A stretch of 64,000 nt of DNA, taken from contig JAGPDT010000001.1 of assembly GCA_018057455.1 (NCBI GenBank), positions 55,956-119,955 on the forward strand, written 5' to 3'. This document shows positions 5,200-55,433 of the stretch, one piece after another. Source of the stretch: Flavobacteriales bacterium. Lineage in GTDB: Bacteria; Bacteroidota; Bacteroidia; Flavobacteriales_F; PHOS-HE28. Numbering within the stretch: the first letter of the stretch is position 1; each line of letters starts with the position of its first letter. The position numbers and the translations under genes were made by a program. The notes under the pieces were generated by a model. The model ran no database searches and was not told the origin of the DNA. It was given only the letters and a program-made list of their open reading frames with translations.

Positions 5200-5238
5200 T
5201 GGGGCCCGATCGAACGCGGACCCGCAACAGGCAAGACC

Positions 5239-9231: not shown

Positions 9232-9419
9232 GGGGCGAAGATGGCGCAGGTATGCACTTTGGTATGTGGCTGCAGTGCAAAGTATTGGGGTGGAGATCGG
9301 AAATGGATGAACGGAGTCGAATAACTCCTTCCGCCGATTTGTTCGGCCAAGGGGACGTGGAAATGCAAAGGTGACGCCTCCAAGGTGTCAGCCCATGTGC
9401 GTAATAATCGTTCACCCGA

Positions 9420-10931: not shown

Positions 10932-11854
10932 TGCTGGGTTTTGGCCAACTTGCCGTAGCGGTAGGTAACAAGGTGGAGTTTGTCGCTTCCTCCTCCACCC
11001 ATTGCCAAGTCGCCCAAAACGGTACAGCCCACCAGGCTCTTTGTTGGCACATACGAGTTCCGCGTTGTGACCATTAAATCGTATGTGCCTTGGGTATAGA
11101 ACTTCATGTCGGTGGGGTTGAAGCATCCCACTCCATTGTCCGAAAAGTAGACCGGGTAGTCACGGATATCATCACCCGCCATTGGATTGTCCGGGCCAAT
11201 TGGTGATGGGTGGCTCATCAAGCCCACCGTGTTGGTGGTTGGGTCGTCATAGCCTTGGTGATCAACCCACCAACTTTCCACATTGGTCCAATAGGACAGG
11301 TATCCACCGTTGATTCCATAGTTGATCCTGTACTGGATCTGTTTATCCGAACATTTGCCTTGGCCCCCGCTGTTCTGGCCACAACCACAGTAGTTCTCGT
11401 TAATCCCCATCCAGTTCCAGTAGTCGTTCTGGCCGTAGTTCGTGTTGGGCGCCCCCTTGTCATAGTTGCTCCCGACAACAGATACGGCGGTGATATCCAA
11501 ACTGCTGCCGGTGGAAGATGTGATCACATCCACCACGGCCACATGGCTGGAATTCGCCACGTTGAAGGCGTTGATCAAATAGCCCAATGTTTCGTATGCA
11601 TCACCCAATTGATCCTCTTGAACCTCACCGGCCACCATGGGAATGGAAATGGCAAGGGTGTCGACCAATTGGTCGTTGTACACCTGGGCAATGTTGGTAT
11701 ATGAATAGTTCAACGCAGCCTCAATGTACCATTCCGCACTATCCGTGGATATGGCCACTCCCTCCCTGGAACCGCTGCTCTGGACCGCCTTGGCAATGAA
11801 CGCCTCCACTCGGGGGGTTACGTTCGTCTCTATGTTCGTGCCCTCCACGGGCAT
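10928..11854 (-). CDS. Hypothetical protein (308 aa, no signal peptide, Gly/Asn/Tyr/Trp-rich), translationally coupled to the downstream T9SS cargo gene
   Basis: The ORF is intact with protein-like composition and a 4-nt ATGA overlap with the next gene. No family was recognised. GC is lower than the genome average. Confidence 0.5.
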   Translation of the reverse strand: MPVEGTNIETNVTPRVEAFIAKAVQSSGSREGVAISTDSAEWYIEAALNYSYTNIAQVYNDQLVDTLAISIPMVAGEVQEDQLGDAYETLGYLINAFNVANSSHVAVVDVITSSTGSSLDITAVSVVGSNYDKGAPNTNYGQNDYWNWMGINENYCGCGQNSGGQGKCSDKQIQYRINYGINGGYLSYWTNVESWWVDHQGYDDPTTNTVGLMSHPSPIGPDNPMAGDDIRDYPVYFSDNGVGCFNPTDMKFYTQGTYDLMVTTRNSYVPTKSLVGCTVLGDLAMGGGGSDKLHLVTYRYGKLAKTQQ

Positions 11855-11951
11855 TGGCGCTCATTCCTTCTGACAGCCTGTGAGGCTGGATAATACCAAG
11901 CCTAGAAAGGTCGTCATACCGATTACATACGACCATTGCCTGTGCCTATGA

Positions 11952-11996
11952 CTGTGCTGTGCTGTGCTGTTCTGTTCTGTGCTGTGCTGTGCTGTG
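11952..11996. repeat. Pentanucleotide microsatellite (CTGTG/CTGTT)x9 in the upstream region of the 10928..11854 / 9420..10931 operon
   Basis: Read directly from the sequence: ctgtg ctgtg ctgtg ctgtt ctgtt ctgtg ctgtg ctgtg ctgtg. Confidence 0.9.
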
Positions 11997-12112
11997 CATG
12001 ATAGTGTGGATTTTTGGTGAGTTTCAAATCTAACAGAATCCTGGCAATATCAATTGCTTGGAAAGAAAGTGTGCAAACTGCTGCACATTGGCAGGGAGGT
12101 CCCGCCTTTCGA

Positions 12113-12844
12113 TCACCCCTCAAACGTAAACGTGAGCACGTAGGTCTTGGAACGCAAGCTCTGGAGCGGGCTGCTGAAGCGGGTGCCGTCGTCCACGAGC
12201 AGGTTGGGGATGCCGATGCCGGTCTTGAGTTCGATGCCGAACTTGAAGTAGGGCAGGAACATGTCCATACCGCCGCCCACCTCGGCGCTGTAGTCGTACT
12301 TGGCGAGCTTCACCACCACGTCCTCGTCCAAGGCGTTGTCCACGTCCTTCTTGCTGGCCATGTCGATGCCGAACTTGCCGCCGCCGATGAGGTACACGGC
12401 GAAATTGTTGATGCGGTCGCTGCGGAACTTGAGCAGGAGCGGGAATTCGAGGTAGGTGCTCTCGATGGGTTTTTGGAAGTTGGCCGTTTTTCCGTCCGGC
12501 TTCAGGAAGGCGTATTTGAGGATGCGGTCCTGGAAGGAGAGGGTGGGGAGGAAGCGCAGGCTGAGGTTGTCGCTCATGTTCAGCGAGGCCACGATGCCCA
12601 GGTTGAAGCCCGGCTGCTTCACGTGGTCCACCGCCAGCAGGGAATCGGTGAAGGGCGACGATGGTTTCATCGTCATGAACAGGTCGCTGGTGTTGTAGCT
12701 GAGCAGAAAGCCGAAGTGGAAGCGGCGCAGATCGAAGTTGGGCAGGTTCTCCACCTTCACGCCGGCGCGTTGCGCGGTGGCGGGTGGGGCCATGCACCAG
12801 GCGAGCAGGAGCAAGAACGGGAGCAGGAGCTTGCGGAGGCGCAT
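12113..12844 (-). CDS. Outer-membrane beta-barrel protein, possibly PorT/SprT-family T9SS component
   Basis: The signal peptide MRLRKLLLPFLLLLAWCMAPPATAQ begins at internal M27. Alternating amphipathic beta-strands and a C-terminal aromatic residue (…TFTFEG) fit a beta-barrel. The position immediately downstream of ubiE mirrors the ubiE-porT arrangement recalled from Porphyromonas. Confidence 0.55.
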   Translation of the reverse strand: MRLRKLLLPFLLLLAWCMAPPATAQRAGVKVENLPNFDLRRFHFGFLLSYNTSDLFMTMKPSSPFTDSLLAVDHVKQPGFNLGIVASLNMSDNLSLRFLPTLSFQDRILKYAFLKPDGKTANFQKPIESTYLEFPLLLKFRSDRINNFAVYLIGGGKFGIDMASKKDVDNALDEDVVVKLAKYDYSAEVGGGMDMFLPYFKFGIELKTGIGIPNLLVDDGTRFSSPLQSLRSKTYVLTFTFEG

Positions 12845-12918
12845 CGGTGCAAGAACGGAAGTGGATGCCGATCCGTGCATGGCCTGTAAGTGCTTCGCAG
12901 GAAGCCGTGGGAGCGCGG

Positions 12919-13641
12919 TCATTTGCGGGCTGAATACAACGTGGCCACGCCGAAGGTGAGCCTGTGTGAGCGTACCTCGCGCAGTCCGCAGTCCGCCAAT
13001 ATGGCCTCGAAGTGCTTGCCCTGGGGGAAGGCGTCCACGCTGGCGGGCAGGTACGCATAGGCGGCATCGTCCTTGCTCACCAGCCGGCCGATCACGGGCA
13101 TCACCTGGTGGAAGTAGAACCGGAAGAGCTGCTTGAACGGGGTTTGCCCGGGCTTGCTGAACTCCAGCACGAAGAGCCTGCCGCCCGGGCGCAACACGCG
13201 CACCATGCCGCGGATGCCGCGGTGCAGGTCTTCGAAGTTGCGCACGCCGAAGGCGACGGTGATGGCATCGAAGGCACCGTCGGCAAAGGGCAGTTCGGCG
13301 GCATCGGCCTGCACCAGTTCAATGCGGCCGGCCAATCCGGCTTTTTCCACTTTGGTGCGGCCCTGGGCGAGCATGCCCGCCGAGATGTCCGCCCCGGTGA
13401 CGTGGCGGGCCACCTTGCTGGTCATGAGGGCGAGGTCGGCGGTGCCGGTGGCCACGTCCAGCAGGCGGTCCACGGGTTCCTGGCCCACGGCACGGACCAG
13501 CTTGCGGCGCCAGCTTTGGTCGGTGCCCAGGGAGCAGAGGCGGTTGAGCAGGTCGTACTTCGGCGAGATCTGGTCGAACATGCGTTCCACCTGCTCGCGT
13601 TTGGAGCCTTGCCCGGTGTAGGGTTTCACTTCAGTGCTCAT
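12919..13641 (-). CDS. ubiE: Demethylmenaquinone / ubiquinone C-methyltransferase UbiE/MenG
   Basis: The YDLLNRLCSLGTDQSWRR motif and the SAM-binding motif LDVATGTADLA are present. The start at internal M28 (MSTEVKPYTG) overlaps the stop of the upstream kinase gene. Confidence 0.88.
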   Translation of the reverse strand: MSTEVKPYTGQGSKREQVERMFDQISPKYDLLNRLCSLGTDQSWRRKLVRAVGQEPVDRLLDVATGTADLALMTSKVARHVTGADISAGMLAQGRTKVEKAGLAGRIELVQADAAELPFADGAFDAITVAFGVRNFEDLHRGIRGMVRVLRPGGRLFVLEFSKPGQTPFKQLFRFYFHQVMPVIGRLVSKDDAAYAYLPASVDAFPQGKHFEAILADCGLREVRSHRLTFGVATLYSARK

Positions 13642-20380: not shown

Positions 20381-20953
20381 TCAGGATCCCCCGCGGTAAA
20401 TGTTCACCCATTGCGGCCGCCCCATGTCGCGGAGCAGGCGGAAGAGGTCCTCACCGATGATGAGCCCGTTGGTGGATTCCAGGCCGTAGTGCCCCAGGAT
20501 CTCCATCTGGCGCGGGCTTGGCGCCAATGGCTTTTCGCTCCATCCCGTGGCGTTGCGCTGGCCGGCCTGCACTTTCAAGGGGTACTCCCAGTAGCGTAGT
20601 TTCCACAGGTTGTCCAGGGTGCTGCAATCGGTCAGGAAGCCCATGGCGGCGCTGTCCGGCGGCAAGGTGCATTGCACCACGCCATACGTGCGGAAAAGGT
20701 CTTCTGCCCCGGGGTTGGCCGCGCTGAAGGCGCGTCCCTGCACCTGGCGGATGAAGTTCTCGCGCGAGAGCGGACGGCTTTCCACCACCTGCGGGGCACC
20801 GGCGGTGTCGCGGGCCACTTTCACCAGGAAGAGGCAGAAAAGGCGGCCATCGGTGGAAGGCGAAAGGCTGAGGGCGAACTGGTGTTCCGAAGGTGTTTGT
20901 GCCGCGGTCCACAGCCATAGGAGAAGAGCAGGAAGGACCGTGGGCAGGCGCAT
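20381..20953 (-). CDS. Hypothetical secreted protein
   Basis: The signal peptide MRLPTVLPALLLWLWTAAQTP begins at internal M27. No family was recognised. Confidence 0.45.
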   Translation of the reverse strand: MRLPTVLPALLLWLWTAAQTPSEHQFALSLSPSTDGRLFCLFLVKVARDTAGAPQVVESRPLSRENFIRQVQGRAFSAANPGAEDLFRTYGVVQCTLPPDSAAMGFLTDCSTLDNLWKLRYWEYPLKVQAGQRNATGWSEKPLAPSPRQMEILGHYGLESTNGLIIGEDLFRLLRDMGRPQWVNIYRGGS

Positions 20954-41921: not shown

Positions 41922-44900
41922 ATGACTTCATGCACTACCCTTCTGAAGCGTACTGTTACGAGAAACCGCTACGGGCTGCTCACCTTGTTCTGGATGTTGA
42001 CCTTCGCATGGTCGGCAGTGGCGCAACCCCCCGATGTAATGCCCGCACATCAGCGGTGGAGCACCTACGTGGGCGGCATCGGCGATGACCAGGTGCTCAG
42101 CGTGGCTACCGATCCCTTCGGCCATGTGTACGTGGCGGGCCGCACTACGGACGGCCTGTTGCTGGGCAACGACACCACGGGCAACAGCGGGCTGACGTAC
42201 CAGCACAACTTCGGCGGCGGAGCCTCCGATGCCTTCCTGGCCAAGATCGCACCGCAGGGTGCCGTGCTTTGGTGTACCTACTTCGGCGGCGCGGGCGATG
42301 ATGAGGCCGTGCAGGTGGTGGTGAACGGCATGGATGAAGTGTACCTCATCGGCAACACCACCTCCAGCGATAGCATTGCCACGGACTCGCTCTCCTTTCA
42401 GCAGGGCCCAGGCGGAGGAGCCGACCTGTTCGTGGCCCGCTTCACCGGCGATGGGGCATTGGTGGGTGCCACCTACTTCGGCGGGCCAGCGGATGAGATG
42501 GCCACCGGGGGGACGATGGATGCTTATGGGCGGTTGGTGGTGTGTGCTTACGCCAATGGCCCGTGCGATCTTCCCGGTGGCCTTGCTCCGCAACAGGCAT
42601 GGACCGCGGACAACGATGGCTTGCTGCTTCGGCTGAAGGGCACGGAGGAACTGCTTGCCGCCACCTACATCGGCGGCAGCGGGGACGACCGTTTGGTGCA
42701 GGTGGCCAAGGGCGACAGCAGTGGAGTGGTGCTGCTGGGCAATACGACAAGTACCAACGGCATCGCCACGGTCGGCGCCATGACGGGGCAACTGCAAGGG
42801 GGGCGGGATGCCTTCCTGATGAAGGTGGATACCAGCATGGCCGTACACTTCGGCACCTACTACGGCGGCGATGGCGATGATGAGGCACGCTCGCTCGCCC
42901 AGCATGGCGGCCTATTGGCCATTGCGGGTGCCACGTGGTCGGATTCTTTGTACACCACGCCGCAGTCCTATCAGCCCGGAAATGCGGGTGGCGGTGACGG
43001 ATTCCTCGCGGTGCTGGACAATGCCTTCACGCTGCAATGGGCCACCTTCCTCGGCGATACCGGAGCCAACGCCATAGCTGCTGTGGCCATTGATTCGCTG
43101 GGCGGCGTGTACACGGCGGGCATCTCCGATGGGGGCTTCATCGTGTCCCCGGATACCATCGCGGACAGCACCTTGGTGGTGCCGCTGCTGAAGGAGGTGG
43201 TGCTGAAACGATTCCTTGCGCCTGATAGCCTGGACTGGAGCGTGCATGTGGGTGGAATGGGCGAGGACGAGGCCCATGCCATGGCAGTGATGGGCTTCAC
43301 CACGGTGTACCTCGGAGGGCGCACCTCATCCACGCAGTACTTCACGAACAACCCGCACCAGATACAATTCGGCGGTGGAACGTGGGATGGGTTTTCCATG
43401 CGGATGGACCAGCGGGTCTCCACGCCGTGCAGCGGTATCAGCACGTGTACTGGCGGTGGTGGTGGTAGTGGTGGCGGAGACAGCGATGGATCGTCAGGGG
43501 TGAACCCGCCACAGCCCGTATATCATGTGTGCCGCGGCGATTCCATCCTGTTCGTCGCTTACGGTGGCGCACTGGGCTTCGATGCCGAATGGATGTGGTA
43601 CGCCGATACCTGCGGGGCCAACAGCCGCTTCCTCACCAGCGGCGACACCATTGTCCTCTATCCCGATAGCTCCTTTACGCTTTACGTCCGTGCTGAGGGG
43701 CTCAACCATGTCACGTCGTGCAGCTACGCGATCATCGTGGTGCATGAGCTTCCCGTGCCCGTGGCCCTTGCTCCGGATACCGTCTGCGCCGGTGCGCCGA
43801 TCACCGTGCATGGTTCAGGTGCTGAGACCTACGCATGGCTCGTGGGCGATTCCGTGCTGGCCACCGGTGCCGATGCCACCTTCAACGCACCGATGACGGG
43901 CGGTGTGATGGCCTTGGTCCTGGCGGGCACCAACGGACCGGCGTGTACGGTGGACGTACCGGTGCCGGTAGTGGTGCTGCCTCCGCCCGATGTGCAGTGG
44001 AACATTACGCACGTGGGTTGCACCGGCGAACCCGGCATGATCGCCATGGAGCTGCCCAATCCCTCGGCCACCGATAGCGCCAACCTTACCATCGCCTGGA
44101 TACCACCTTCGCTACAAGGGCCCACGCCCACCGGGCTGGCCGAAGGCTTGTACATCGCCTTGGTCACGGACACCAGTACAGGTTGCAGCCGCACCGACAC
44201 GCTGCACGTGTTGCGCCCGCCCGTGTTGGACGCCGCGTGGCAGGTGGAAGGGGTGGGCTGCAACGGCGAGCCCGGCTCCATCCAGTTGGTAGTGCCCGAT
44301 AGCACGGTGTTGGATTCCGCCTTGCAGATCACATGGGCGCAGAACGGCCTGAATGGGCCGCAGCTCACAGGCCTTTCCGCAGGCAGCTACATGGCCACGC
44401 TGCAAGACACACTGGGCTGCAGCCGCACAGATACCTTGGTGATCACGCAGCCGCCATTGCTGAATGTGGCTTGGCACGTGCAGGGCACCACGTGCTACGA
44501 TGGAGGCGACGGCGCGATCCTGTTGATGCAGCCCGCGCCCGACAGTCCGGACACGGCGGTCTTCACCTTCATCTGGGCACAGCCCGGCCTTACCGGCCAT
44601 GCGCTTACGGGCCTCGCTCCCGGCCCGTACATCGTCACTGTGGCGGATTCCACCGGTTGCAGCCGTATGGACAGCCTGCTGGTAACTGCGCCACCGCCGT
44701 TGATGGACAGCGTAGCCACCACGAATGCGTGGTGCGGCATGGCCACGGGTAGCGCTCTTGTACATACCATCAGCATAGCGCCGGGGCTGCAGTTCAACTT
44801 CGGGAACGGGCCGGACACGGATTCCTTCACTGGGCAACTTCTACCCGGAGGCTACACGGTGAACGCCAGCGACAATGCCGGTTGCGCACAGCAGATCGGC

Positions 44901-45467
44901 TTCACCATCCAAGCCTTCGGAACGATCAGCGTAAGCATCGACGCAGATACGCTGATCGCTGTGAACGACACCACCTTCCTGCAGTGCGTCATGGTGCCTG
45001 CGGACAGTGCGGCCAGCATACAGTGGTCTCCTTCCATCGGCCTTGCCGAACCCACGGCCGCGGGTACAGCCTGCGTGGTTTCCGATACCACCGTGTACGT
45101 GGTGCTGGTGACCAGCCACGCCGGTTGCACCGCATCCGATTCCGTGGTGGTGGTGCCCTTGAAATTGGTGCCACCCAGCATCACGCCGCCCTGTGGCGAC
45201 TTCTTCCTGCCGGACCATTTCTCGCCCAACGGCGACGGCATCAACGACGTGCTCTGCCCCTTGGGCGGCTGCATCACCAGCCTCCATTGGGAAGTGCTGG
45301 ACCGCTGGGGAGGTAAGCTCTTTTCGTCCGAAAGTCCTGAACTGTGCTGGGACGGCACGCACAACGGCATCCCCGTACCGGCGGGCAGCTACGTGCTCAC
45401 CCTGGCGGTGGAGCGCAGCACCGGAGAAACGATCCAACGCACCGGCACCATTACCCTACGGCGATGA
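41922..45467 (+). CDS. Large secreted cell-surface protein with beta-propeller (SBBP-like) repeats, multiple SprB repeats and a T9SS type-B C-terminal sorting domain
   Basis: Length is 1181 aa with an N-terminal signal peptide. Repeated units of the form …D.TGCSRTDTL.V..PP.L…G..C.G..G… resemble SprB repeats. The C-terminus (PPCGDFFLPDHFSPNGDGINDVL...) resembles the gliding-motility C-terminal domain. The stop overlaps the porP/sprF start. Confidence 0.8.
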   Translation: MTSCTTLLKRTVTRNRYGLLTLFWMLTFAWSAVAQPPDVMPAHQRWSTYVGGIGDDQVLSVATDPFGHVYVAGRTTDGLLLGNDTTGNSGLTYQHNFGGGASDAFLAKIAPQGAVLWCTYFGGAGDDEAVQVVVNGMDEVYLIGNTTSSDSIATDSLSFQQGPGGGADLFVARFTGDGALVGATYFGGPADEMATGGTMDAYGRLVVCAYANGPCDLPGGLAPQQAWTADNDGLLLRLKGTEELLAATYIGGSGDDRLVQVAKGDSSGVVLLGNTTSTNGIATVGAMTGQLQGGRDAFLMKVDTSMAVHFGTYYGGDGDDEARSLAQHGGLLAIAGATWSDSLYTTPQSYQPGNAGGGDGFLAVLDNAFTLQWATFLGDTGANAIAAVAIDSLGGVYTAGISDGGFIVSPDTIADSTLVVPLLKEVVLKRFLAPDSLDWSVHVGGMGEDEAHAMAVMGFTTVYLGGRTSSTQYFTNNPHQIQFGGGTWDGFSMRMDQRVSTPCSGISTCTGGGGGSGGGDSDGSSGVNPPQPVYHVCRGDSILFVAYGGALGFDAEWMWYADTCGANSRFLTSGDTIVLYPDSSFTLYVRAEGLNHVTSCSYAIIVVHELPVPVALAPDTVCAGAPITVHGSGAETYAWLVGDSVLATGADATFNAPMTGGVMALVLAGTNGPACTVDVPVPVVVLPPPDVQWNITHVGCTGEPGMIAMELPNPSATDSANLTIAWIPPSLQGPTPTGLAEGLYIALVTDTSTGCSRTDTLHVLRPPVLDAAWQVEGVGCNGEPGSIQLVVPDSTVLDSALQITWAQNGLNGPQLTGLSAGSYMATLQDTLGCSRTDTLVITQPPLLNVAWHVQGTTCYDGGDGAILLMQPAPDSPDTAVFTFIWAQPGLTGHALTGLAPGPYIVTVADSTGCSRMDSLLVTAPPPLMDSVATTNAWCGMATGSALVHTISIAPGLQFNFGNGPDTDSFTGQLLPGGYTVNASDNAGCAQQIGFTIQAFGTISVSIDADTLIAVNDTTFLQCVMVPADSAASIQWSPSIGLAEPTAAGTACVVSDTTVYVVLVTSHAGCTASDSVVVVPLKLVPPSITPPCGDFFLPDHFSPNGDGINDVLCPLGGCITSLHWEVLDRWGGKLFSSESPELCWDGTHNGIPVPAGSYVLTLAVERSTGETIQRTGTITLRR

Positions 45468-46480
45468 AACGCACCATCTGCTTCGCGGTTGCCGGCCTGC
45501 TGGTGGGGCTGCTGCACGGTCAGGATGCCGATCCGTCCTTCGCTGGAAGCGCACCGCTGCTGCTGGATCCCTCGCGCAGCGGCTTCAGTCCGGGTGGGCA
45601 GGTCAGCTTCATCCATCGCGACCAATGGTTGCAATTGCCTGGCACCTGGCGTAGCGATCAGCTGGCCGCCGAATGGTGCGCGCGCAACACCCGCAAGCCA
45701 GTGGAATCATGGTTGGGCATCGCACTGATCGCGCAGCAGGACCGGCAAGCCGTGGAGGGCGGACGGCGCACCGTGCTGGACTTCACGTCAGCGATGCATG
45801 TACGCGCGGGCCGCCGTTCGTTCCTTTCCTCCGGGATCGAAGCACGCTTGGCCGACCAGCAAGTGGGCGACGTTGGTGGAACCTGGGGCAGCCAGTACGG
45901 AGGTGGCCGCTACGACCCCGGCCTGGCAACGGGGGAAGGGTCCGGCACGGGAAGGCTCACCACGCTGGAAATGCGCGTGGGACTTTCCTACACCTTGAAG
46001 TACGAGGAGGAAAGCCGCTTGCGCCGCGAGCTCGACATGCTGGTGGCCGGCATCGCCGCCGACCACATAGGCGGTTTTTCGCTGCATGAGGAAGGGGCAC
46101 CGGTGGGATCGCCGCCCATACGCCTCACGGCATACGTGCTGGGTGAGCTGCCGCATGAACTATGGGACAAGGGCTTCTTCTCCGCGGAACTCATCGGCCA
46201 AGCGCAGGGGCCGTTCCTCACCGGGCGCATCGGGGTATTCGCCGGTAAGCACCTGCTCAATGCCGTGCGCGAGCCGGGTGGCCCCATGCTGCAGGGTTTC
46301 AAGGCCGGGTTGTCCTATCGCCTGCACGATGCGCTGCTGGTGAACGCCGCGCTGGACCTGGGCCGCACCACCTTCGGCATGGCCTACGGCTGGAGCATCT
46401 TCAACCCCAACAAGGCCGTGGCCGGCAGGCGCACCTTCGAGCTGCTGGCACAAGTGCGCTTTGTGAAGGGCGGGAAGTAG
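45464..46480 (+). CDS. PorP/SprF-family T9SS outer-membrane protein, partner of the type-B cargo
   Basis: The signal peptide MKRTICFAVAGLLVGLLHGQ begins at internal M41. Beta-barrel composition is present. The position immediately downstream of, and coupled to, a type-B CTD cargo gene is canonical. Confidence 0.75.
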   Translation: MKRTICFAVAGLLVGLLHGQDADPSFAGSAPLLLDPSRSGFSPGGQVSFIHRDQWLQLPGTWRSDQLAAEWCARNTRKPVESWLGIALIAQQDRQAVEGGRRTVLDFTSAMHVRAGRRSFLSSGIEARLADQQVGDVGGTWGSQYGGGRYDPGLATGEGSGTGRLTTLEMRVGLSYTLKYEEESRLRRELDMLVAGIAADHIGGFSLHEEGAPVGSPPIRLTAYVLGELPHELWDKGFFSAELIGQAQGPFLTGRIGVFAGKHLLNAVREPGGPMLQGFKAGLSYRLHDALLVNAALDLGRTTFGMAYGWSIFNPNKAVAGRRTFELLAQVRFVKGGK

Positions 46481-46631
46481 GGGGCATGTACGTGAAGCGA
46501 GGTAGGGAGCGCAATGGAAGATGGTTCCGCCCTGCACCGGGGTTCGCTTTGCGTGGGCGGGGCCAGTGACTAAATCGAAAAAGACCATTGGTCCCTGCAC
46601 TACCCGTACTTTGAACCGCGTTTTCCACCGC

Positions 46632-46787
46632 ATGAGCCCAACCCCCGAACAACAAGCCCGCGAACGCATCGATGCGATGCTCACCGCGTCCGGCTGGGCC
46701 GTGCAGGACAAAAAAGCCCTGAACCCCGCGGTGGGCCGTTTACGGCAGGCGTTTTTGGAGCGGGCATTTGAGAGGAGGTTGGGGTGA
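46632..46787 (+). pseudogene. Remnant of a restriction-enzyme R-subunit N-terminus (HSDR_N-like; 51-codon stub)
   Basis: MSPTPEQQARERIDAMLTASGWAVQD matches the E..R..ID..L...GW N-terminal signature of type I/III restriction R subunits. It terminates after 51 aa with no helicase or nuclease body. Confidence 0.4.
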
Positions 46788-46790
46788 GGT

Positions 46791-47749
46791 ATGGGTACGC
46801 TTACGTCATATAAGTCTATCGAGGAGAAGCAGGCGGTCTTCACAAATTGTGTCTTCTGCGACACCGAGAAGGATATACGCGACTGGCTCACTGGTATTGG
46901 TGAAGGAAGCTTAAATGGTGTTGGCATGGCATTCCGCGGACTTACACGCGGCAGTTACAAGCTGTACAGCAGCTTGCAGCGAAGCTGGGTTGAGCAAGAC
47001 TTGGCTTTACACCAACAGAACCACAAGGGTATTGTACAGCGCATCCTTGATGAAGCTTTTGAACAACGTGTGAACGGTACATCACTCGTGAATGGAGAGC
47101 GTGACGAGCTTGCAATGTTGTCCTACTTGCAGCACCATGGCTGCCCAACGCCTTTCCTTGATTTCACTTCGGACGTACGGGTGGCTTTGTTCTTTGCCAG
47201 TCAGGAGCCGAAGGGGGCTGGAAATGGCAGTGAGCTTGACAACTACTTCTCAATCTCATCCATCGCGAAATTGTGGATGCCATGAACTCAGGCTTGGCGA
47301 AAGCATGGAGAGAATGCGATTCTGGACATAGGGCGGAGGCTGCACAATGGTTCCGGTCTTATGAGATGAACGCCTTGCAGGATACGCTCATCTTCGAAAC
47401 GCAGTGGATCAACCGGAACTATGGAGGGGGCGTTGTGAGCTTGGATACCTCGGATCGCTTCAGGCGCCAGGCTGGATTGTTCGCGATGAACAACACAGCA
47501 GACCTGCCATTCCCTGAGGCGGTTCATGCATTTGTTGATGCACGTACGAACGATGTGCGGGAGCAGCGTTCGGTCCGAACGTGGATTAATAGCCTGAACA
47601 TCCATCGAAACTATGCGGGGCTGGTCACGTCTTGGCTGAGCAGCCAGGATCCCCCTATAACGGAAAATTATCTGCTTCCGGTACAAGAGAATGAGGGTTG
47701 GATATGTGACATCTTCGACCGCATGTTGGGGAACTGCTCACGTGAATGA
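46791..47749 (+). pseudogene. FRG-domain protein gene interrupted by a frameshift near 47273-47285 (two track ORFs, 46791..47285 and 47273..47749)
   Basis: FRGLTRGSYKLYSSLQR (the FRG motif), LQHHGCPTPFLDFTSD (resembling the HyG.PT.LLDwT motif) and RFRRQAGLFAMNN (the R..Q.G.F motif) are spread over two overlapping frames. GC is lower than in flanking DNA. Confidence 0.55.
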
Positions 47750-47766
47750 TGGAACTGAATTGTTGA

Positions 47767-50700
47767 ATGAATAACAAGATCAACCAAGACGACCCCGCCG
47801 TAAGCAACGCCTACGACGCGTTGAAGAACACGGCGGACAAGGTGATGCAGGGCCTGGAGAAGGTCCGTGAGCACCAAGGAATAAACCGGCGCCGGTGGCT
47901 GTGGGAACTGGTGCAGAACGCGAAGGATGTTCCGAACCGTTTCGGCCAGGTGTCCATCAAGATTGTGCGTGAGCCGGACCTACTCACCTTCGCCCACAAC
48001 GGCGATCCCTTTCAGGTGCGCAATGTGACCGCCCTGATCAACCAGGTGAGTTCCAAGCCCTCGGACAGTATCGATGCGCAAATCACCGGCAAGTACGGTA
48101 CGGGCTTCATCAGCACGCACTTGCTGAGCACCACCATCGAGGTAACAGGCGTGATCCATCGGGAAGGCCGACCAGCCAAGCGGATGCACTTGATGCTGGA
48201 CCGTGAAGGTACCCGCAGCGAGGACCTTATCCCGAAGATTGAAAATGCCAGGGCGCTGGTGGAGCGGATTGACACTGATGCCGCCTTTGAGGATATGCCG
48301 GACTACGATACACAACGCACGGAGCAGAGCTTTGATACGGTTTTCACCTACCCATTGATCACCGAGGATGCCCGTTTGGCCGCTTCGGATGGTTTGGCCG
48401 ATCTGGTGAACACGCTACCGTATACCCTCGGTAACCTCGCCAAGGTGAAGCGGCTTATCGTGGAGGACAGTGTAAAGGGGCAAACGCTGGACTACCGGTG
48501 CAAGGTGGTGGCGAACGATGGCTCCATTCGTAAGTTGTGCATGAGCGCCGGGGAGCAGGTCATTGCCCACTTCATCTCATACGGCAAGGACAACTTGACT
48601 CTGACCGTGGAGGTGAATGGGTTTGAGCGGCCCAAGCTGAAGGCCAACTTCGGGGAGCAACCAAACCTGTACCGCGACTTTCCTCTGATCGGGTCCGAAA
48701 AATTCCACTTCCCCTTCATCCTGAACAGCGTAGAACTGTACCCCAACGAGGAGCGCAGCGGCATCTTCCTGAACGCTGCCGGTACCAGCCATGTGGCCAC
48801 CAACCGGCAGGTAATAGAACGCGCGATGGATTTGGCAGTGGAATTCGGGCAATGGCTGGCGGAACAGGGCGCAAGCAATTTGTATGTAGCGGCGTACAGC
48901 CGTCTGCCTGGCGTGAATATGGACCCCAGCGCCATGGAGTGGTACCAAGAGCGGCAACGGAACTGGCGTGGACGAATACTAAAATTGCCTTTAGTGGAGA
49001 CCACCGCTGGCACCACCATCGCTCTGAAAGATGCGATCATTCCCAGGCATGGTCCTGAAGGCATGGCGAACGCGGTTCTGTGGGAATTGGTGGTGGCCTT
49101 TCATGGACGAGGACGGCTTCCACGCAAGGATCTTCTCGCCCCATGGCTGAAAGCCCTGGGCCCCATGGAGGAATCCGATTCTTGGAATCAAGGCGCCACC
49201 CTTATCCAGGGTTTGGAAGATCTGTTCAAACATGTAGAAAGCAAGGGAGCGCTGGAGGCCTTGGTCTTGGAACCCTGGCCGGAAGGCGTAGCCCATTCGC
49301 CTGTTGACTGGCTTAGTCGGCTGTTCCGGTTCGCCATCGAGCAGAAGGAAGGGGAATTGCTGGACAAGTATGCCGTGGTGCCGGACCAGTACGGGCGCTT
49401 TCACAAGCTCAGCGAACTCTACCTCGAAGACATAGAGGCCCGTATACCGGACGCGGTCCTGGATGTGATGAAGAAGCTCGGTGCCGATTGGCGAGCCCTG
49501 CTGATCCACCGCAGTCTGGATCTGGATCAAAAGAGCCATAAGCGCTGGGGGCTGGCGGATGCATCCAAGAAGGTGACCGAGCTGCTGGGTGGTGACCTCG
49601 CCGAGCAGGCGACTGGTACGACATTTACCGGCAGGACCGATGCGCTGGACATTCTATTCGAACTGATCGCCATCGTTCCTACGGGAGGTCGGAAGGGCTT
49701 TCGCGCTTCACTCTTCAGCAACGGTTGCAGCTTCTTCCAGCGCACTGGGGATTTGAACGAGACAAGCGGTTGTTCTGACTTCAATTTTGCGCCCGCTATA
49801 CGCCTACTCCTGCAATTCATCCATAATCGCATCACTGAATGCAGCAACATGGATGGACTTGCCCTTTTCATGGCCGTTTCCAAGGACCAAGCTGTTCTGT
49901 GGCTGGATAGACACCTGCGCTCCCTTGTTGGACATGATGAGTACAAGGCCTTCCTTGAGCGCGGGAATATCATACCCAACCGGTATGGTGAGCTAAAAGG
50001 TTACGATGCTCTCTACAACTACGGGACCGAGGACCAACCCATGGATGCCGACCTAGTCGAAGTGCTCAAGGAACTCGATGATGCACAGGATTGGAACAAG
50101 GTGCTTGTAGGTGATGACATTGGAATATCTCTGAAGGAGACCCGCTCGATGCTCCAGCTCGGTAAGGCCATCGATGATCAGGTGGCCCAGATTTGGGGCA
50201 AGGCAGCCTCAGAACCGCAGATCCTTGAGGAGAGGCAAGCCACGCTAGTGGCGCTCATCGATTGGTGCAATGCGAATGAGGACGATGCCAACCGCTTCAT
50301 GCCCGGCTTCATGCAGATCAAGGACAAGCTGTCCTTTGACCTCATTATCCGGCCGAACCTGTCCAGCGGTGTCATAGGTCTACTCGGGGACAAGCGGTAT
50401 GGTGCCGTGCTGCAATCCATCCAAAGCCGTGGCTTGGATGTCGGAAAGGTCAAGGAGTTACTGGAAATCACCGGCGCGTTGGGCTCCTTGGACCCAATCA
50501 TCAATAGGGCAAAGGAGATGCTGGAGGAAAAGCAGGACCTCGAGTACAAGAAGGAGTTAGGGGAAGGCATGGAGAAACTGCTGAAGGAGGCGCTCGATGC
50601 AGAAGGCTTCCAGACGCACGTCCAAGGCATCGGCGATTATGACATATCGGTCACCAATCCCGCGAACGGCAAGATGTTCTACATTGAACTCAAGTCGGTG

Positions 50701-51042
50701 GCGGCCGGGTCGAAGGCCCCCTTGAAGCTGGCCCCGTCACAAGCGCAGGTATGGAAGACTGATGCGCGGGATAGGGCACTGTGCCTTATTGAACGAGGAA
50801 CTACAGCCTCTCCTGCTACCATCGCCTACATTATGCAACAGTTGCGCACAAGGCAAGGTCTTTCCGGTGATCTTGCGGCTGGCAACGCAGCCTTGGGCAC
50901 ATTCCAGATTTTACAGCATGAAAGTAATCTCGACTTTCAGCTCTTGGGCGATGTCAGGGTACGCCTGGAGCAACATCGGTTTATGCAAGGGGCGGTCGAT
51001 TACGCTAAGCTTATCGAAGCAATCAAGAATGCGATCAGTTGA
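47767..51042 (+). CDS. Large GHKL/Bergerat-fold ATPase (sacsin/Hsp90-like N-terminal domain) fused to a C-terminal PD-(D/E)xK nuclease of the NOV_C/DUF3883 type (bacterial NO VEIN-like protein); candidate single-protein defence factor
   Basis: The N-box RRWLWELVQNAKDV, G1-like FAHNGDPF and G2 box TGKYGTGFIS are present. The C-terminus has GIGDYDISV...KMFYIELKSV, giving a D...(D/E)xK signature. Length is 1091 aa, with lower GC than the chromosome backbone. Confidence 0.7.
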   Translation: MNNKINQDDPAVSNAYDALKNTADKVMQGLEKVREHQGINRRRWLWELVQNAKDVPNRFGQVSIKIVREPDLLTFAHNGDPFQVRNVTALINQVSSKPSDSIDAQITGKYGTGFISTHLLSTTIEVTGVIHREGRPAKRMHLMLDREGTRSEDLIPKIENARALVERIDTDAAFEDMPDYDTQRTEQSFDTVFTYPLITEDARLAASDGLADLVNTLPYTLGNLAKVKRLIVEDSVKGQTLDYRCKVVANDGSIRKLCMSAGEQVIAHFISYGKDNLTLTVEVNGFERPKLKANFGEQPNLYRDFPLIGSEKFHFPFILNSVELYPNEERSGIFLNAAGTSHVATNRQVIERAMDLAVEFGQWLAEQGASNLYVAAYSRLPGVNMDPSAMEWYQERQRNWRGRILKLPLVETTAGTTIALKDAIIPRHGPEGMANAVLWELVVAFHGRGRLPRKDLLAPWLKALGPMEESDSWNQGATLIQGLEDLFKHVESKGALEALVLEPWPEGVAHSPVDWLSRLFRFAIEQKEGELLDKYAVVPDQYGRFHKLSELYLEDIEARIPDAVLDVMKKLGADWRALLIHRSLDLDQKSHKRWGLADASKKVTELLGGDLAEQATGTTFTGRTDALDILFELIAIVPTGGRKGFRASLFSNGCSFFQRTGDLNETSGCSDFNFAPAIRLLLQFIHNRITECSNMDGLALFMAVSKDQAVLWLDRHLRSLVGHDEYKAFLERGNIIPNRYGELKGYDALYNYGTEDQPMDADLVEVLKELDDAQDWNKVLVGDDIGISLKETRSMLQLGKAIDDQVAQIWGKAASEPQILEERQATLVALIDWCNANEDDANRFMPGFMQIKDKLSFDLIIRPNLSSGVIGLLGDKRYGAVLQSIQSRGLDVGKVKELLEITGALGSLDPIINRAKEMLEEKQDLEYKKELGEGMEKLLKEALDAEGFQTHVQGIGDYDISVTNPANGKMFYIELKSVAAGSKAPLKLAPSQAQVWKTDARDRALCLIERGTTASPATIAYIMQQLRTRQGLSGDLAAGNAALGTFQILQHESNLDFQLLGDVRVRLEQHRFMQGAVDYAKLIEAIKNAIS

Positions 51043-51155
51043 ACAAGCCGGAACGCCGTGGATTCTTATGTTCTTAACGTCCGCCCACGTGTGCTGTGCA
51101 AGGCGTGCAAGGTGTGCGGCCATGGAAGACCTCCTCGCCAGACTTGCCTATCCCA

Positions 51156-52295
51156 TCACCGGTACTTGAACCAGGCCGCCATGAAGGGATTGTACGGTGC
51201 GTAAACAGGCTTTCCGGATTCGGCAGCGTGTTCGGTGATGTAGATCAGCTCGCGATCAAGCAGGGCTTGGAGGGCATGCACCAAGGCGGCCGAGGAAGGC
51301 AGGTTGTACTTCCGGGTGAAGGCCGCGCCCGTGGGGGTGTCCACCTCGCCTTCGCGGGAGATGGCGGCGAAGAGGTCCCACTGGTTGCGCGTGAGTGCGC
51401 TGCGCAGCGTGGCCATGATGGCATCCTGCTCGCGCACGATGGCCAGCAGCGAACGCACCACCGTGTCGCGGTCCAGTGTTGCGGAATCGCCGAAAAGGCG
51501 GTTGAGGAGCACTTGCATGTAGTAGGTGTGGCCCCGGCACAGGTCGTAGCAGAACAGGGCCTCCTCCTTTTTCAGGGAGCGGCCATGGCGCTTCATCAGG
51601 TGGGGGGCAAAATCCGCATATGTGGCGCGGTCGATGCGCTTGAGCTCGACCTGGTCCGCGCTGCCATAGAACGGATTGGCGGCGTTGTTGAACAGGTCCA
51701 GCAGGATGTGGCGCTGGCTGCCGGAGAAGATGCAGCGCACCTTGGTGCTGCGCTGCAGCTCGGTCCGGAGCAGCGCGTCCATGCGCGCCTCCTGGAAGGT
51801 CGCGATCTGCTGGAACTCGTCGATGGCCAGGAAGATGGTGCGGTCCTGCTCGTTGAGCACGCGGAAGATCTCCCGCGTGGTGGCTGCTTCCTGCCGGTGG
51901 CTGCTGCGTTCCAGGCTGATGCTCGGGCTGCCCGTCAGCTCGTCCATGCTCACCACCGGGCGCAGGGCGGAGAACCAGGCCATCACGTTCTTCAGGAACT
52001 GCTTGGGCGTGGGGTTGAGGGCTTGGTGTACGGCGTTCAGCAGAATGGTGTTGAATTCATGCACGTCACGCGCCGCGTAGATGTCGGCGAACACGGTCCG
52101 CGCGCCGCGCACCTTGGACAGCCCGTGGAACACATGGTGGATGAGGCCCGTTTTCCCATACCGCCTGGGGCTGTACAGCATCACGTGCCGTCCGTTCCGC
52201 AAGGCGGACGCGATGGTCCTCGTTTCCTCCTCCCGGTCGCAGAAGAAGCTTGGCCCCATGTAGGCGTTCACGGCGAACGGGTTGTCATCGGTCAT
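51156..52295 (-). CDS. AAA-type ATP-binding protein (archaeal-type ATPase PF01637 plus DUF234 architecture)
   Basis: FFCDREEETRTIASALRNGRHVMLYSPRRYGKTGLI is the family N-terminal signature with a Walker A motif. Walker B is IFLAIDEFQQI. Length is 379 aa. Confidence 0.75.
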   Translation of the reverse strand: MTDDNPFAVNAYMGPSFFCDREEETRTIASALRNGRHVMLYSPRRYGKTGLIHHVFHGLSKVRGARTVFADIYAARDVHEFNTILLNAVHQALNPTPKQFLKNVMAWFSALRPVVSMDELTGSPSISLERSSHRQEAATTREIFRVLNEQDRTIFLAIDEFQQIATFQEARMDALLRTELQRSTKVRCIFSGSQRHILLDLFNNAANPFYGSADQVELKRIDRATYADFAPHLMKRHGRSLKKEEALFCYDLCRGHTYYMQVLLNRLFGDSATLDRDTVVRSLLAIVREQDAIMATLRSALTRNQWDLFAAISREGEVDTPTGAAFTRKYNLPSSAALVHALQALLDRELIYITEHAAESGKPVYAPYNPFMAAWFKYR

Positions 52296-52687
52296 GGCAG
52301 CGAAGTTAGGTCATCTTACTAAGAATAGTTTAGTAAAGATTACTTAGTAAGTAGTTTTTATTCAATTGAATGGGCGCCGGATGTTGCCGCCAAGGATGAT
52401 CGGTTCGCCCGGCACACGGTCCAGGTGGGCCGGATAGGACGAAGGCTGGAGCTTCAACCTCCGCCAGGGACGGCACGAAGCGGAACGTGGCTTACCAGGG
52501 CCGTTCGGGGCTTTTGGGCATTTCAACACGTCCTTTGGTCATCCTTCGTACACTTGCTTGGCGATTACCCCTTTGGGTTTTACGGGAGCGGACCTGATGA
52601 AGGTCGGGGTTTCCGAGCCCACTGGGGGATCGTCTTTTATCACAGGGCCTTATCAGTACCCCCTTGGCCCTGCGCCTCCTTCAGTGA

Positions 52688-55433
<2,746 letters not shown>

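What the first reader, a model, noticed from the sequence alone, without database searches (positions are those of the whole stretch)
46481..52420. A ~6 kb compositionally distinct islet (HsdR_N stub, FRG gene, GHKL-nuclease, DUF234 ATPase) bounded by an AT-rich palindromic junction
GC drops visibly, from ~65% in the backbone to roughly 50-55% across 46.8-51 kb. The islet begins with a 51-codon stub that has the restriction R-subunit N-terminal signature (E..R..ID..L...GW). It ends at a ~70-nt AT-rich stretch (52305-52372) containing the palindromic repeats cttactaag / cttagtaag / tttagtaaag. A ~1.2 kb tract of decayed coding fragments follows. Together this looks like a defence/mobile islet that replaced an older restriction system.
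Basis: partly seen in the sequence, partly recalled or inferred. Interest (0 to 1): 0.6.

Follow-up and report, generated by a model that had tools for sequence, protein, structure and literature searches.

The report
Decayed restriction locus carrying Tiamat defence gene
The low-GC islet is the wreck of a type I restriction-modification operon that carried two embedded anti-phage genes; only the Tiamat gene (tmtA) is still intact, which makes this an ordinary defence locus with an unusually readable history of decay.

Summary
The GC dip is real: 46.7-51.1 kb has GC 0.55 against 0.63 for the window, and GC3 0.58-0.69 against 0.77-0.89. It ends at the tmtA stop codon (51042), not at 52.4 kb.

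- **The 51-codon "stub".** It is an in-frame fusion of the first ~33 codons of hsdR with the last 16 codons of hsdS. This is an internal ~4 kb deletion of a type I R-M operon.
- **The FRG gene.** It is a PADLOC PDC-S15 homologue inactivated by a 4-nt deletion.
- **The "GHKL-nuclease".** It is a full-length Tiamat TmtA with an Hsp90-like ATPase and a C-terminal PD-(D/E)xK nuclease. All conserved residues are present.
- **Relatives.** The intact arrangement survives elsewhere as hsdR-hsdS-[FRG or TmtA or other cargo]-hsdM. The cargo therefore did not replace a restriction system. It sat inside one that later collapsed.
- **The ATPase.** It lies on the minus strand, has backbone composition and gives no DUF234 hit.
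- **The AT-rich palindromes.** They are that ATPase gene's own upstream element, conserved before its orthologues in unrelated contexts. They are not an islet junction.
- **Mobility.** No integrase, tRNA or bounding repeats were found.

Verdict: new member of known kinds, modest interest. The side observations are recurrent hsdR'::'hsdS mini-ORFs and cargo cassettes flanked by hsdS-tail repeats.

The parts
46632..46787 (+). hsdR'::'hsdS in-frame fusion mini-ORF (51 codons). 46632-46730 is the hsdR 5' part, matching residues 12-45 of the relative's HsdR. 46731-46736 is the junction. 46737-46787 is the last 16 codons of hsdS plus the stop codon.
   Evidence: The hsdR part shares 28/34 aa and 85.7% nt with the L030 hsdR 5' end. 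The tail RLRQAFLERAFERRLG* compares with RLRQAVLKRAFEGRLV* in four relatives' HsdS, 12/15 aa. N-termini of DEAD/DEAH helicases next to hsdS on plasmids also match.
46791..47749 (+). FRG-domain gene (PADLOC candidate PDC-S15), now a pseudogene. A 4-nt deletion at about 47252/47253 splits it into ORFs 46791-47285 and 47273-47749.
   Evidence: PF08867 E 2.9e-15. PDLC04932 positions 2-162 fall on the first ORF and 241-310 on the second. Intact homologues of 318-330 aa are 43-67% identical over 98% of the joined sequence. The 4-nt gap appears in the DNA alignment. The same split is present in all strain assemblies.
47767..51042 (+). tmtA (Tiamat), 1091 aa and intact. It has an N-terminal Hsp90/sacsin-like GHKL ATPase with a middle domain, a helical region, and a C-terminal PD-(D/E)xK nuclease (NOV_C/DUF3883-like).
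   Evidence: PADLOC PDLC03967 E 2.3e-190 over 6-1060/1063. NCBIfam NF047352 E 1.3e-20. Invariant E47, N51, D54, G108, K109, G111, T112, G113, D959, E974 and K976 across 110 homologues. AF2 model pLDDT 87, with Foldseek top hits Hsp90/TRAP1. The C-terminal 200 aa model has pLDDT 90 and hits Hjc, the SPARDA nuclease and PvuII. PF13020 is sub-threshold here (15.2 bits) but passes in homologues.
51156..52295 (-). AAA+ ATPase of the ATPase_2 family (379 aa). It has backbone composition, is not part of the compositional islet, and is convergent with tmtA.
   Evidence: PF01637 E 3.7e-10 with no DUF234 hit. GC3 0.876. A dense series of 66-84% identical orthologues of 379-381 aa exists in Flavobacteriales MAGs, in different neighbourhoods.
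52296..52372 (-). AT-rich 5' region of the ATPase gene. It holds three TTAsTAA half-palindromes (52316-52322, 52330-52336, 52344-52350) and a conserved CCTAACTTCGC box just before the ATG. Likely a promoter/operator.
   Evidence: GC is 0.39 over 52296-52400. The motif occurs only here in the 64 kb, against 0.41 expected by chance. Similar TTAsTAA-type copies, one diverged, and the box are present upstream of orthologues in L039, L040 and L122.
52688..53671 (-). Remnant of a phage or conjugative-element Mu F / PBECR2 'polyvalent' protein gene. Only the last ~40 residues of the Mu F domain plus a PBECR2-like C-terminus remain. It has intermediate GC.
   Evidence: PF04233 covers profile positions 75-111 of 112 only. 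PBECR2 is sub-threshold. phrog_220 'minor head protein and DNA pilot' E 5e-10 over 36 residues. Phage tblastn hits. GC3 0.63.

Best explanation
The interval between the T9SS gene porP/sprF (ends 46480) and the ATPase gene is the collapsed remainder of a type I restriction-modification operon of the form hsdR-hsdS-[embedded defence cargo]-hsdM.

**Inferred history**
1. One internal deletion removed about 4 kb, from hsdR codon ~34 to the 16th-last codon of hsdS. It left a 51-codon in-frame hsdR'::'hsdS mini-ORF that keeps the hsdR start.
2. The mini-ORF also keeps the hsdS stop codon, which lies 3 nt before the first cargo gene.
3. hsdM and any further cargo are no longer detectable; what removed them was not established. 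The boundary lies exactly at the tmtA stop codon.
4. The first cargo gene, an FRG-domain PDC-S15 candidate, was inactivated by a 4-nt deletion. FRG is an ART-superfamily domain and a predicted NADase effector.
5. The second cargo gene, tmtA (Tiamat), is intact and is the only part likely to work.

**Inferred mechanism of TmtA (not shown)**
- It is a single-protein system.
- An Hsp90/sacsin-like GHKL ATPase acts as an ATP-dependent switch or clamp.
- That switch licenses the C-terminal PD-(D/E)xK nuclease to cut DNA during infection.
- tmtA may be transcribed from the retained hsd promoter, but that was not tested.

The neighbouring ATPase gene and its AT-rich palindromic upstream element are a separate unit with backbone composition.
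For: **Shown**
- The stub equals the hsdR 5' end (82% aa, 86% nt to L030 hsdR) joined to the hsdS tail (12/15 aa to four relatives).
- The hsdS-stop/FRG-ATG junction is the same as in the intact loci L032 and L038.
- Relatives keep the intact architecture:
  - L030: hsdR-hsdS-TmtA(63%)-...-hsdM.
  - L025: hsdS tail-PDC-S06-347 aa-TmtA(80%)-M78/DUF4411-...-hsdM.
  - L032: hsdS-FRG(67%)-PDC-S32-...-hsdM.
  - L038: hsdS-FRG(55%).
  - L072: hsdM-hsdS-TmtA(31%)-hsdR.
  - L035: FRG(62%) directly followed by a 1097-aa ORF of TmtA size, not itself tested.
- The FRG frameshift is documented.
- TmtA is full length with all invariant catalytic residues and the expected folds.
- DNA homology to the closest tmtA (L025) covers only 47788-51043.
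- Composition supports a foreign origin for the cargo.
- There are no hsdM or hsdS remnants elsewhere in the window.

**From the literature**
- Type I R-M systems frequently carry embedded defence genes, and the PDC models were built from such genes (bioRxiv 10.1101/2024.01.29.577857).
- Tiamat is listed as a single-gene system with a PD-(D/E)xK domain (bioRxiv 10.1101/2024.10.26.620412).
- A review lists the Tiamat mechanism as unknown (PMC12926258).
- FRG is described as an ART-superfamily putative NADase (PMC9503650).
Against: - No genome with the intact operon at this exact chromosomal site, and no empty site, was found. The order of events, and whether decay happened in situ or before transfer, is therefore inferred.
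- The stub's hsdR part has near-backbone GC (0.646) while the cargo is 0.50-0.56. The two could have different residence times.
- Among 80 more distant TmtA loci, only about 5 have hsd genes nearby and none has FRG. Embedding is therefore typical of this clade rather than of Tiamat in general.
- Expression of tmtA from the hsd promoter, ATPase activity, nuclease activity and anti-phage function are all untested.
- PF13020 is below threshold in this protein.
Confidence: 0.8

Rival explanations
1. A mobile defence islet (FRG, GHKL-nuclease, ATPase) inserted here and displaced an older, unrelated restriction system. It would be bounded on the right by an AT-rich palindromic attachment-like junction.
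For: There is a compositional dip and an hsdR remnant at the left edge. An AT-rich palindromic stretch exists at 52315-52351.
Against: - The stub also contains the hsdS tail, and its junction to FRG is the native hsdS/FRG junction seen in relatives.
- FRG and TmtA homologues sit inside type I operons elsewhere.
- The ATPase has backbone GC3 and lies on the other strand.
- The palindromic element travels with ATPase orthologues in unrelated contexts.
- There is no integrase, tRNA or flanking repeat.
Confidence: 0.07
2. The block stub-FRG-tmtA was acquired by horizontal transfer already in its collapsed form. In this reading no working type I system ever existed at this site in this lineage.
For: - Orthologous stubs with the identical junction (NPAAG|RLRQ), 87% identical over 48 aa, exist in other assemblies (P0259, P0408, P0409).
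- The cargo has clearly foreign composition.
- The arrangement is fixed in all strain-level contigs.
Against: - The contexts of those orthologous stubs could not be retrieved.
- They may simply be close relatives at this locus. The non-coding DNA upstream of the stub also appears conserved when P0408 is read in another frame of the window sequence (inference).
- The hsdR part of the stub has near-backbone GC.
Confidence: 0.3
3. The hsdR'::'hsdS mini-ORF is retained by selection as a leader. It would keep the hsd promoter, the start codon and the stop/start coupling to the first cargo gene, so that embedded defence genes stay expressed after the R-M genes are lost.
For: - A second fusion with junctions that differ on both sides precedes TmtA in L042. 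Its stop codon overlaps the tmtA ATG (ATGA).
- In the window the stub stop lies 3 nt before the FRG ATG.
- 36 of the best 150 library representatives are in-frame HsdR-N/HsdS-tail fusions with varied junctions.
Against: - The protein-library search can only see in-frame fusions, so ascertainment is biased.
- Two in-frame cases have a chance probability of about 1/9.
- The first gene after the window's stub is a pseudogene, so coupling is not currently protecting it.
- There are no expression data.
Confidence: 0.25
4. The GC dip reflects gene-intrinsic composition of defence genes, such as amino-acid content, rather than foreign origin.
For: TmtA GC2 is low (0.381). The tmtA region is also below its flanks in L030.
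Against: - GC3, which is least constrained by protein sequence, is 0.58-0.69 against 0.77-0.89 for neighbours.
- The closest tmtA homologues sit in different loci and genomes, and DNA homology stops at the ORF ends.
Confidence: 0.08

Closest known systems
Tiamat (TmtA) single-gene anti-phage system (Millman et al. 2022, as cited in PMC12926258; PADLOC and DefenseFinder models)
   Same: Full-length match to PADLOC TmtA model PDLC03967 (E 2.3e-190). It is a single ~1090-aa protein with an N-terminal GHKL/sacsin-like ATPase and a C-terminal PD-(D/E)xK domain, and all family-invariant residues are present.
   Different: It is a Bacteroidota clade member found embedded in a type I R-M operon that is decayed here. 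Most of the more distant TmtA loci sampled show no hsd neighbours. The mechanism is unknown in the literature I could read, and activity was not tested here.
PDC-S15, the FRG-domain phage defence candidate from the 'guilt-by-embedding' survey (bioRxiv 10.1101/2024.01.29.577857)
   Same: Both halves of the window gene match PDLC04932. Intact homologues lie immediately after hsdS inside type I R-M operons, which is the context from which the PDC models were derived.
   Different: The window copy is a pseudogene with a 4-nt deletion. In L032 and L038 the gene is flanked by direct repeats of the hsdS 3' tail. I did not find that feature described in the embedding paper: a term search for 'hsdS' and 'recombination' found no occurrence.
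Type I R-M operons with embedded defence genes (PrrC/EcoprrI, RloC, GmrSD/BrxU-like; Payne et al. preprint; PMC3710099)
   Same: Relatives show hsdR-hsdS-[cargo]-hsdM, with cargo on the same strand and tightly spaced. Cargo includes PDC-S06, PDC-S32, M78/DUF4411, Mrr and GmrSD_N.
   Different: Here the host R-M system is gone and only a 33+16-codon fusion remains, while one cargo gene survives intact.
Eukaryotic sacsin / NO VEIN (NOV) proteins
   Same: They share the Hsp90-like 'sacsin N-terminal ATP-binding' module. For NOV they also share the C-terminal PF13020 (NOV_C, formerly DUF3883) domain.
   Different: The window protein is a bacterial single-module protein in a defence context. This is a resemblance of domains only, and no functional equivalence is implied.

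Membership tests
Tiamat (TmtA) | Full-length match to a TmtA family model as a single-gene system | tested here: met
   PADLOC PDLC03967 E 2.3e-190, protein 8-1090 against profile 6-1060/1063.
Tiamat (TmtA) | N-terminal GHKL (Bergerat-fold) ATPase with an intact nucleotide-binding motif | tested here: met
   NF047352 sacsin ATP-binding domain E 1.3e-20. E47, N51, D54 and G108-K-x-G-T-G113 are invariant in 110 homologues. Foldseek top hits are Hsp90/TRAP1/GRP94.
Tiamat (TmtA) | C-terminal PD-(D/E)xK nuclease domain (DUF3883/NOV_C) | tested here: met
   D959...E974-x-K976 are invariant. The C-terminal model (pLDDT 90) matches Hjc resolvases, the SPARDA nuclease and PvuII. PF13020 is sub-threshold in this protein (15.2 against 22.1 bits) but passes in homologues P0055 and P0067.
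Tiamat (TmtA) | Protects cells against phage infection | not testable with these tools
   This requires cloning and phage challenge.
PDC-S15 / FRG-domain defence candidate | FRG domain plus a full-length match to a PDC-S15 model in one intact ORF | tested here: not met
   The domain and model both match. However, the match is split over two frames by a 4-nt deletion, whereas intact homologues are 318-330 aa. The window copy is a pseudogene.
Type I restriction-modification system | hsdR, hsdM and hsdS genes all present | tested here: not met
   Only 33 hsdR codons and 16 hsdS codons remain. No hsdM, hsdS or hsdR match exists elsewhere in the 64 kb.
Integrative mobile element / genomic island | Integrase or recombinase, tRNA or att target, flanking direct repeats | tested here: not met
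   No tRNA in the window. No bounding direct or inverted repeats beyond chance-size matches. No integrase-family hit among the ORFs scanned.
   Pfam gives ATPase_2 (PF01637) and generic AAA families only, at E up to 5.

The most novel reading that the evidence does not exclude
Type I hsd operons of this Bacteroidota group may act as a cassette platform for defence genes, in two ways.

**Cassette exchange**
- Cargo is bounded by repeats of the conserved hsdS 3' tail: 35-38 nt at 91-92% identity around FRG in L032 and L038.
- Cargo can also be bounded by repeats of the hsdM 5' head: 76 nt at 96% identity in L030.
- Such repeats are the signature of Campbell-type or homology-driven integration, and they would allow cassette exchange between loci.

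**A minimal expression platform**
- When the R-M genes are lost, selection would keep an in-frame hsdR'::'hsdS mini-ORF.
- That mini-ORF preserves the promoter, the start codon and the stop/start coupling to the cargo.
- The window and L042 would be two separate examples, and dozens more fusions exist in the protein library.
Probability: 0.25. Interest if true: 0.55.

Novelty: new member of a known kind. Interest (0 to 1): 0.35.

Why it matters
It gives a concrete, base-resolved example of how a defence island erodes. The host restriction system is lost through one internal deletion, while an embedded single-gene system (Tiamat) survives.

It also shows that Tiamat and the FRG candidate PDC-S15 are recurrent cargo placed directly after hsdS in Bacteroidota type I operons. 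For annotation, short ORFs with an HsdR N-terminal signature can mark collapsed type I loci whose neighbours are defence genes.

If the side observations hold, they suggest how embedded defence genes move and stay expressed. Those observations are the hsdS-tail repeats around cassettes and the recurrent in-frame hsdR'::'hsdS mini-ORFs.

Tried and rejected
- **Empty site or alternative cargo in relatives.**
  - The GTDB scan with PorP found only 49-60% identical relatives, and synteny downstream was lost.
  - Exact-protein look-ups of PorP, the ATPase and TmtA returned only same-species contigs with the identical arrangement.
  - Orthologues of the ATPase (about 80% identical) lie in other neighbourhoods, so they give no empty site.
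- **Boundary repeats, tRNA, promoters and terminators.** Nothing meaningful was found.
- **hsdM or hsdS remnants.** A relaxed tblastn over 46-54 kb (E up to 5) found none beyond the stub.
- **General FRG-TmtA or hsd-TmtA linkage.** Among 80 metagenomic TmtA loci there was no FRG, and only about 5 had hsd genes. I therefore rejected the idea of an obligate FRG+TmtA two-gene system.
- **Sequence search of solved structures.** The stub and the TmtA profile gave no hits.
- **Fusion ORFs on plasmids.** tblastn of two fusion ORFs found no fused copies, only separate hsdR and hsdS genes.
- **Millman et al. 2022.** The paper is not held in the library.

Full report
**Source and composition**

The window is 100% identical to contig JAHZTR010000162.1 of GCA_020054605.1, a Flavobacteriales MAG.

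- GC is about 0.64 in the flanks and falls to 0.51-0.58 between 46.5 and 51.2 kb.
- The 4.4-kb window starting at 46701 is the lowest of the whole 64 kb: 0.550 against mean 0.628, sd 0.024.
- GC3 is 0.58-0.61 for the FRG gene and 0.69 for the large gene. The neighbours (RNR, CHU_C, PorP, guaB, DUF2400) have 0.77-0.89.
- The dip ends at the stop codon of the large gene (51042). The next gene, 51156-52295 on the minus strand, has backbone composition (GC 0.637, GC3 0.876).
- A second, weaker dip at 52.0-53.75 kb (0.56-0.59) is a different segment.

**Gene content**

- Upstream lie a T9SS cargo protein (CHU_C) and PorP/SprF.
- ORF 46791-47285 has an FRG domain (PF08867) and matches PADLOC PDC-S15 model positions 2-162 of 324.
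- The overlapping ORF 47273-47749, in another frame, matches positions 241-310 of the same model.
- Intact homologues are single proteins of 318-330 aa, 43-67% identical over 98% of the joined sequence.
- A DNA alignment shows a 4-nt deletion at about 47252/47253 in the window. The split is present in every strain-level assembly. It is therefore a real pseudogene and not a sequencing error.

**The large gene is Tiamat TmtA**

- The 1091-aa protein (47767-51042) matches the PADLOC TmtA model PDLC03967 end to end (E 2.3e-190) and the NCBIfam sacsin ATP-binding domain.
- In an alignment of 110 homologues the Bergerat motifs (E47, N51, D54; G108-K-x-G-T-G113) and a C-terminal D959...E974-x-K976 triad are invariant.
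- An AlphaFold model (pLDDT 87) matches the Hsp90/TRAP1/GRP94 N-terminal and middle domains.
- A model of the last 200 residues (pLDDT 90) matches PD-(D/E)xK nucleases: Hjc resolvases, the SPARDA nuclease and PvuII.
- PF13020 (NOV_C, formerly DUF3883) is sub-threshold in this protein but passes in homologues.
- A review lists the Tiamat mechanism as unknown (PMC12926258). A preprint places it among single-gene systems with a PD-(D/E)xK domain.
- My inference is that it acts as an ATP-gated nuclease.

**The stub is a fusion of hsdR and hsdS**

The closest TmtA homologue with long context is P0010 (63% identical, GCA_002482775.1, locus L030). It lies in hsdR(916 aa)-hsdS-TmtA-68 aa-Mrr-GmrSD_N-...-hsdM.

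- Window 46632-46730 encodes residues 12-45 of that HsdR: 28/34 aa identical and 85.7% nt identical.
- The rest of the 51-codon ORF, RLRQAFLERAFERRLG*, is the C-terminal tail of HsdS. Four relatives have RLRQAVLKRAFEGRLV* (12/15 aa).
- The following stop-nn(n)-ATG junction to FRG is the same as in the intact loci L032 and L038.
- The stub is therefore an in-frame hsdR'::'hsdS fusion left by an internal deletion of about 4 kb.
- No hsdM, and no further hsdR or hsdS sequence, is detectable in the window.

**Contexts of relatives**

| Locus | Arrangement |
|---|---|
| L025 | hsdS tail-PDC-S06-347 aa-TmtA(80%)-M78/DUF4411-cNMP-hsdM |
| L028 | TmtA(68%) between a methylmalonyl-CoA mutase gene and HTH/HipA, with no hsd genes |
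| L072 | hsdM-DUF4145-hsdM-hsdS-TmtA(31%)-hsdR |
| L032 | hsdS-FRG(67%)-PDC-S32-...-M78/DUF4411-PIN-hsdM |
| L038 | hsdS-FRG(55%)-AF_1680-helicase... |
| L035 | FRG(62%) followed after 16 nt by a 1097-aa ORF of TmtA size |

- Among 80 more distant metagenomic TmtA loci, only about five have hsd genes nearby and none has FRG.
- FRG and this TmtA clade are therefore recurrent cargo placed right after hsdS. They are not an obligate pair, and Tiamat in general is not tied to type I systems.
- That type I systems often hold embedded defence genes, and that the PDC models were derived from such genes, is already published (bioRxiv 10.1101/2024.01.29.577857).
- DNA homology between the window and L025 is confined to 47788-51043, which is the tmtA ORF itself.

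**The ATPase and the AT-rich palindromes**

- The minus-strand gene is an ATPase_2 (PF01637) AAA+ protein with no DUF234 hit.
- It has a dense series of 66-84% identical orthologues of 379-381 aa in Flavobacteriales MAGs.
- Those orthologues lie in different neighbourhoods: after acyl-CoA dehydrogenase in L039 and L040, and between DUF1801 and a P-type ATPase in L122.
- The AT-rich stretch lies directly upstream of its ATG. Its three TTAsTAA copies are the only ones in 64 kb, against 0.41 expected by chance.
- Similar copies and a CCTAACTTCGC box precede the orthologues too.
- It is therefore most likely the promoter/operator of the ATPase gene and not an islet junction.

**The tract beyond**

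The region at 52.4-53.86 kb holds a 327-codon ORF. It retains only the last ~40 residues of a Mu F domain and a sub-threshold PBECR2 domain. I read this as a remnant of a phage or conjugative-element polyvalent protein gene. guaB follows at 53859.

**Mobility and empty site**

- No tRNA, integrase or bounding repeat was found.
- All strain-level contigs from at least eight samples share the arrangement.
- The nearest other genomes (PorP 49-60% identical) have lost synteny. No empty site is available.
- Whether decay happened in situ or before transfer therefore remains open.

**Side observations in related loci**

1. *Tail and head repeats.* In L032 and L038 the FRG cassette is flanked by direct repeats of the hsdS tail (35-38 nt, 91-92% identical). 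Several FRG proteins end in the HsdS-tail peptide in frame. In L030 a 76-nt repeat of the hsdM 5' end (96% identical) flanks a DprA-like/helicase cargo block. Such repeats are what single-crossover integration at a conserved hsd end would leave.
2. *A second fusion.* L042 (TmtA 44% identical) carries a second hsdR'::'hsdS in-frame mini-ORF, MASLTPEQQARERIDTML|GQAMWLRQAVLKRAFEGGWGR*. Its junctions differ on both sides from the window's, and its stop codon overlaps the tmtA start (ATGA).
3. *Library-wide fusions.* A phmmer search with the stub found that 36 of the best 150 representatives are short ORFs that fuse an HsdR N-terminus to an HsdS tail at varied junctions. This search can only see in-frame fusions.
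4. *Same-junction stubs.* Three stubs share the window's junction (P0259, P0408, P0409; 87% identical over 48 aa). P0408 has the same contig statistics as TmtA homologue P0011, which is 52% identical. Adjacency could not be checked.

**Verdict**

The interpretation needs correcting on three points:
- It is a defence locus, but the restriction system was its scaffold rather than its predecessor.
- The palindromic junction belongs to the neighbouring gene.
- There is no sign of an integrative element.

All components belong to known kinds: Tiamat, PDC-S15 and type I R-M with embedded cargo. Interest is modest. The recurrent mini-ORF and the tail-repeat cassettes are the only parts that might repay a systematic study.

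Noticed in passing
window 52316-52350 (minus-strand upstream region of the gene at 51156-52295): Three TTAsTAA half-palindromes spaced 14 nt apart, plus a CCTAACTTCGC box just before the ATG. Similar elements precede ATPase_2 orthologues in L039, L040 and L122, which lie in unrelated contexts. Probably an operator/promoter for an unknown regulator.
   Followed up: yes
window 52688-53671 (minus strand): A 327-codon ORF holding only the C-terminal ~40 residues of a Mu F / SPP1 gp7 domain plus a weak PBECR2 nuclease-like domain. GC3 is 0.63. It looks like a 5'-truncated remnant of a phage or ICE polyvalent protein gene lying next to guaB.
   Followed up: partly
L032 4239-4273 / 5213-5247; L038 2959-2996 / 3951-3988; L030 17213-17288 / 20729-20804: Embedded cargo is flanked by direct repeats of conserved hsd gene ends: the hsdS 3' tail around FRG, and the hsdM 5' end around a DprA-like/helicase block. 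Several FRG proteins end in frame with the HsdS tail peptide (..VLKRAFEGRLG).
   Followed up: partly
L042 9455-9574 (and 956-990): A second hsdR'::'hsdS in-frame mini-ORF, with junctions that differ from the window's, sits immediately before a TmtA gene (44% identical) with an ATGA stop/start overlap. Another hsdS-tail copy lies 8.5 kb upstream, after a 251-aa ORF, with aldo/keto reductase and ADH genes in between.
   Followed up: partly
protein library hits P0258-P0407: 36 of the best 150 representatives matching the stub are short ORFs (45-487 aa) that fuse an HsdR N-terminus to an HsdS C-terminal tail at many different junctions. P0259, P0408 and P0409 share the window's junction. Contexts were not retrievable.
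   Followed up: partly
L035 3-24 and L042 103-124: An identical 22-nt sequence, TTCGACTTTTAACCGGACAGCA, lies just upstream of the first cargo gene in two different loci (FRG in L035, a 251-aa ORF in L042). It may be a shared promoter or cassette boundary.
   Followed up: no
window 9000-13000: A second low-GC tract (0.55-0.57) in the same window. It encodes a T9SS Por_Secre_tail protein, an outer-membrane beta-barrel protein and two ORFs with no family match. None has a PADLOC hit.
   Followed up: partly
window 41922-46480; L007, L008, L009: The pair of a large CHU_C/SBBP T9SS cargo gene followed by porP/sprF is conserved in distant relatives (49-60% identical PorP), while everything downstream differs. 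The 3' side of porP seems to be a variable junction.
   Followed up: no
L039, L040, L122 compared with window 51156-52295: The ATPase_2 gene is highly conserved (66-84% identical, constant length) across many Flavobacteriales MAGs. Its neighbours differ between the window, L039/L040 and L122. Either genome rearrangement is extensive or the gene moves together with its own upstream element.
   Followed up: partly
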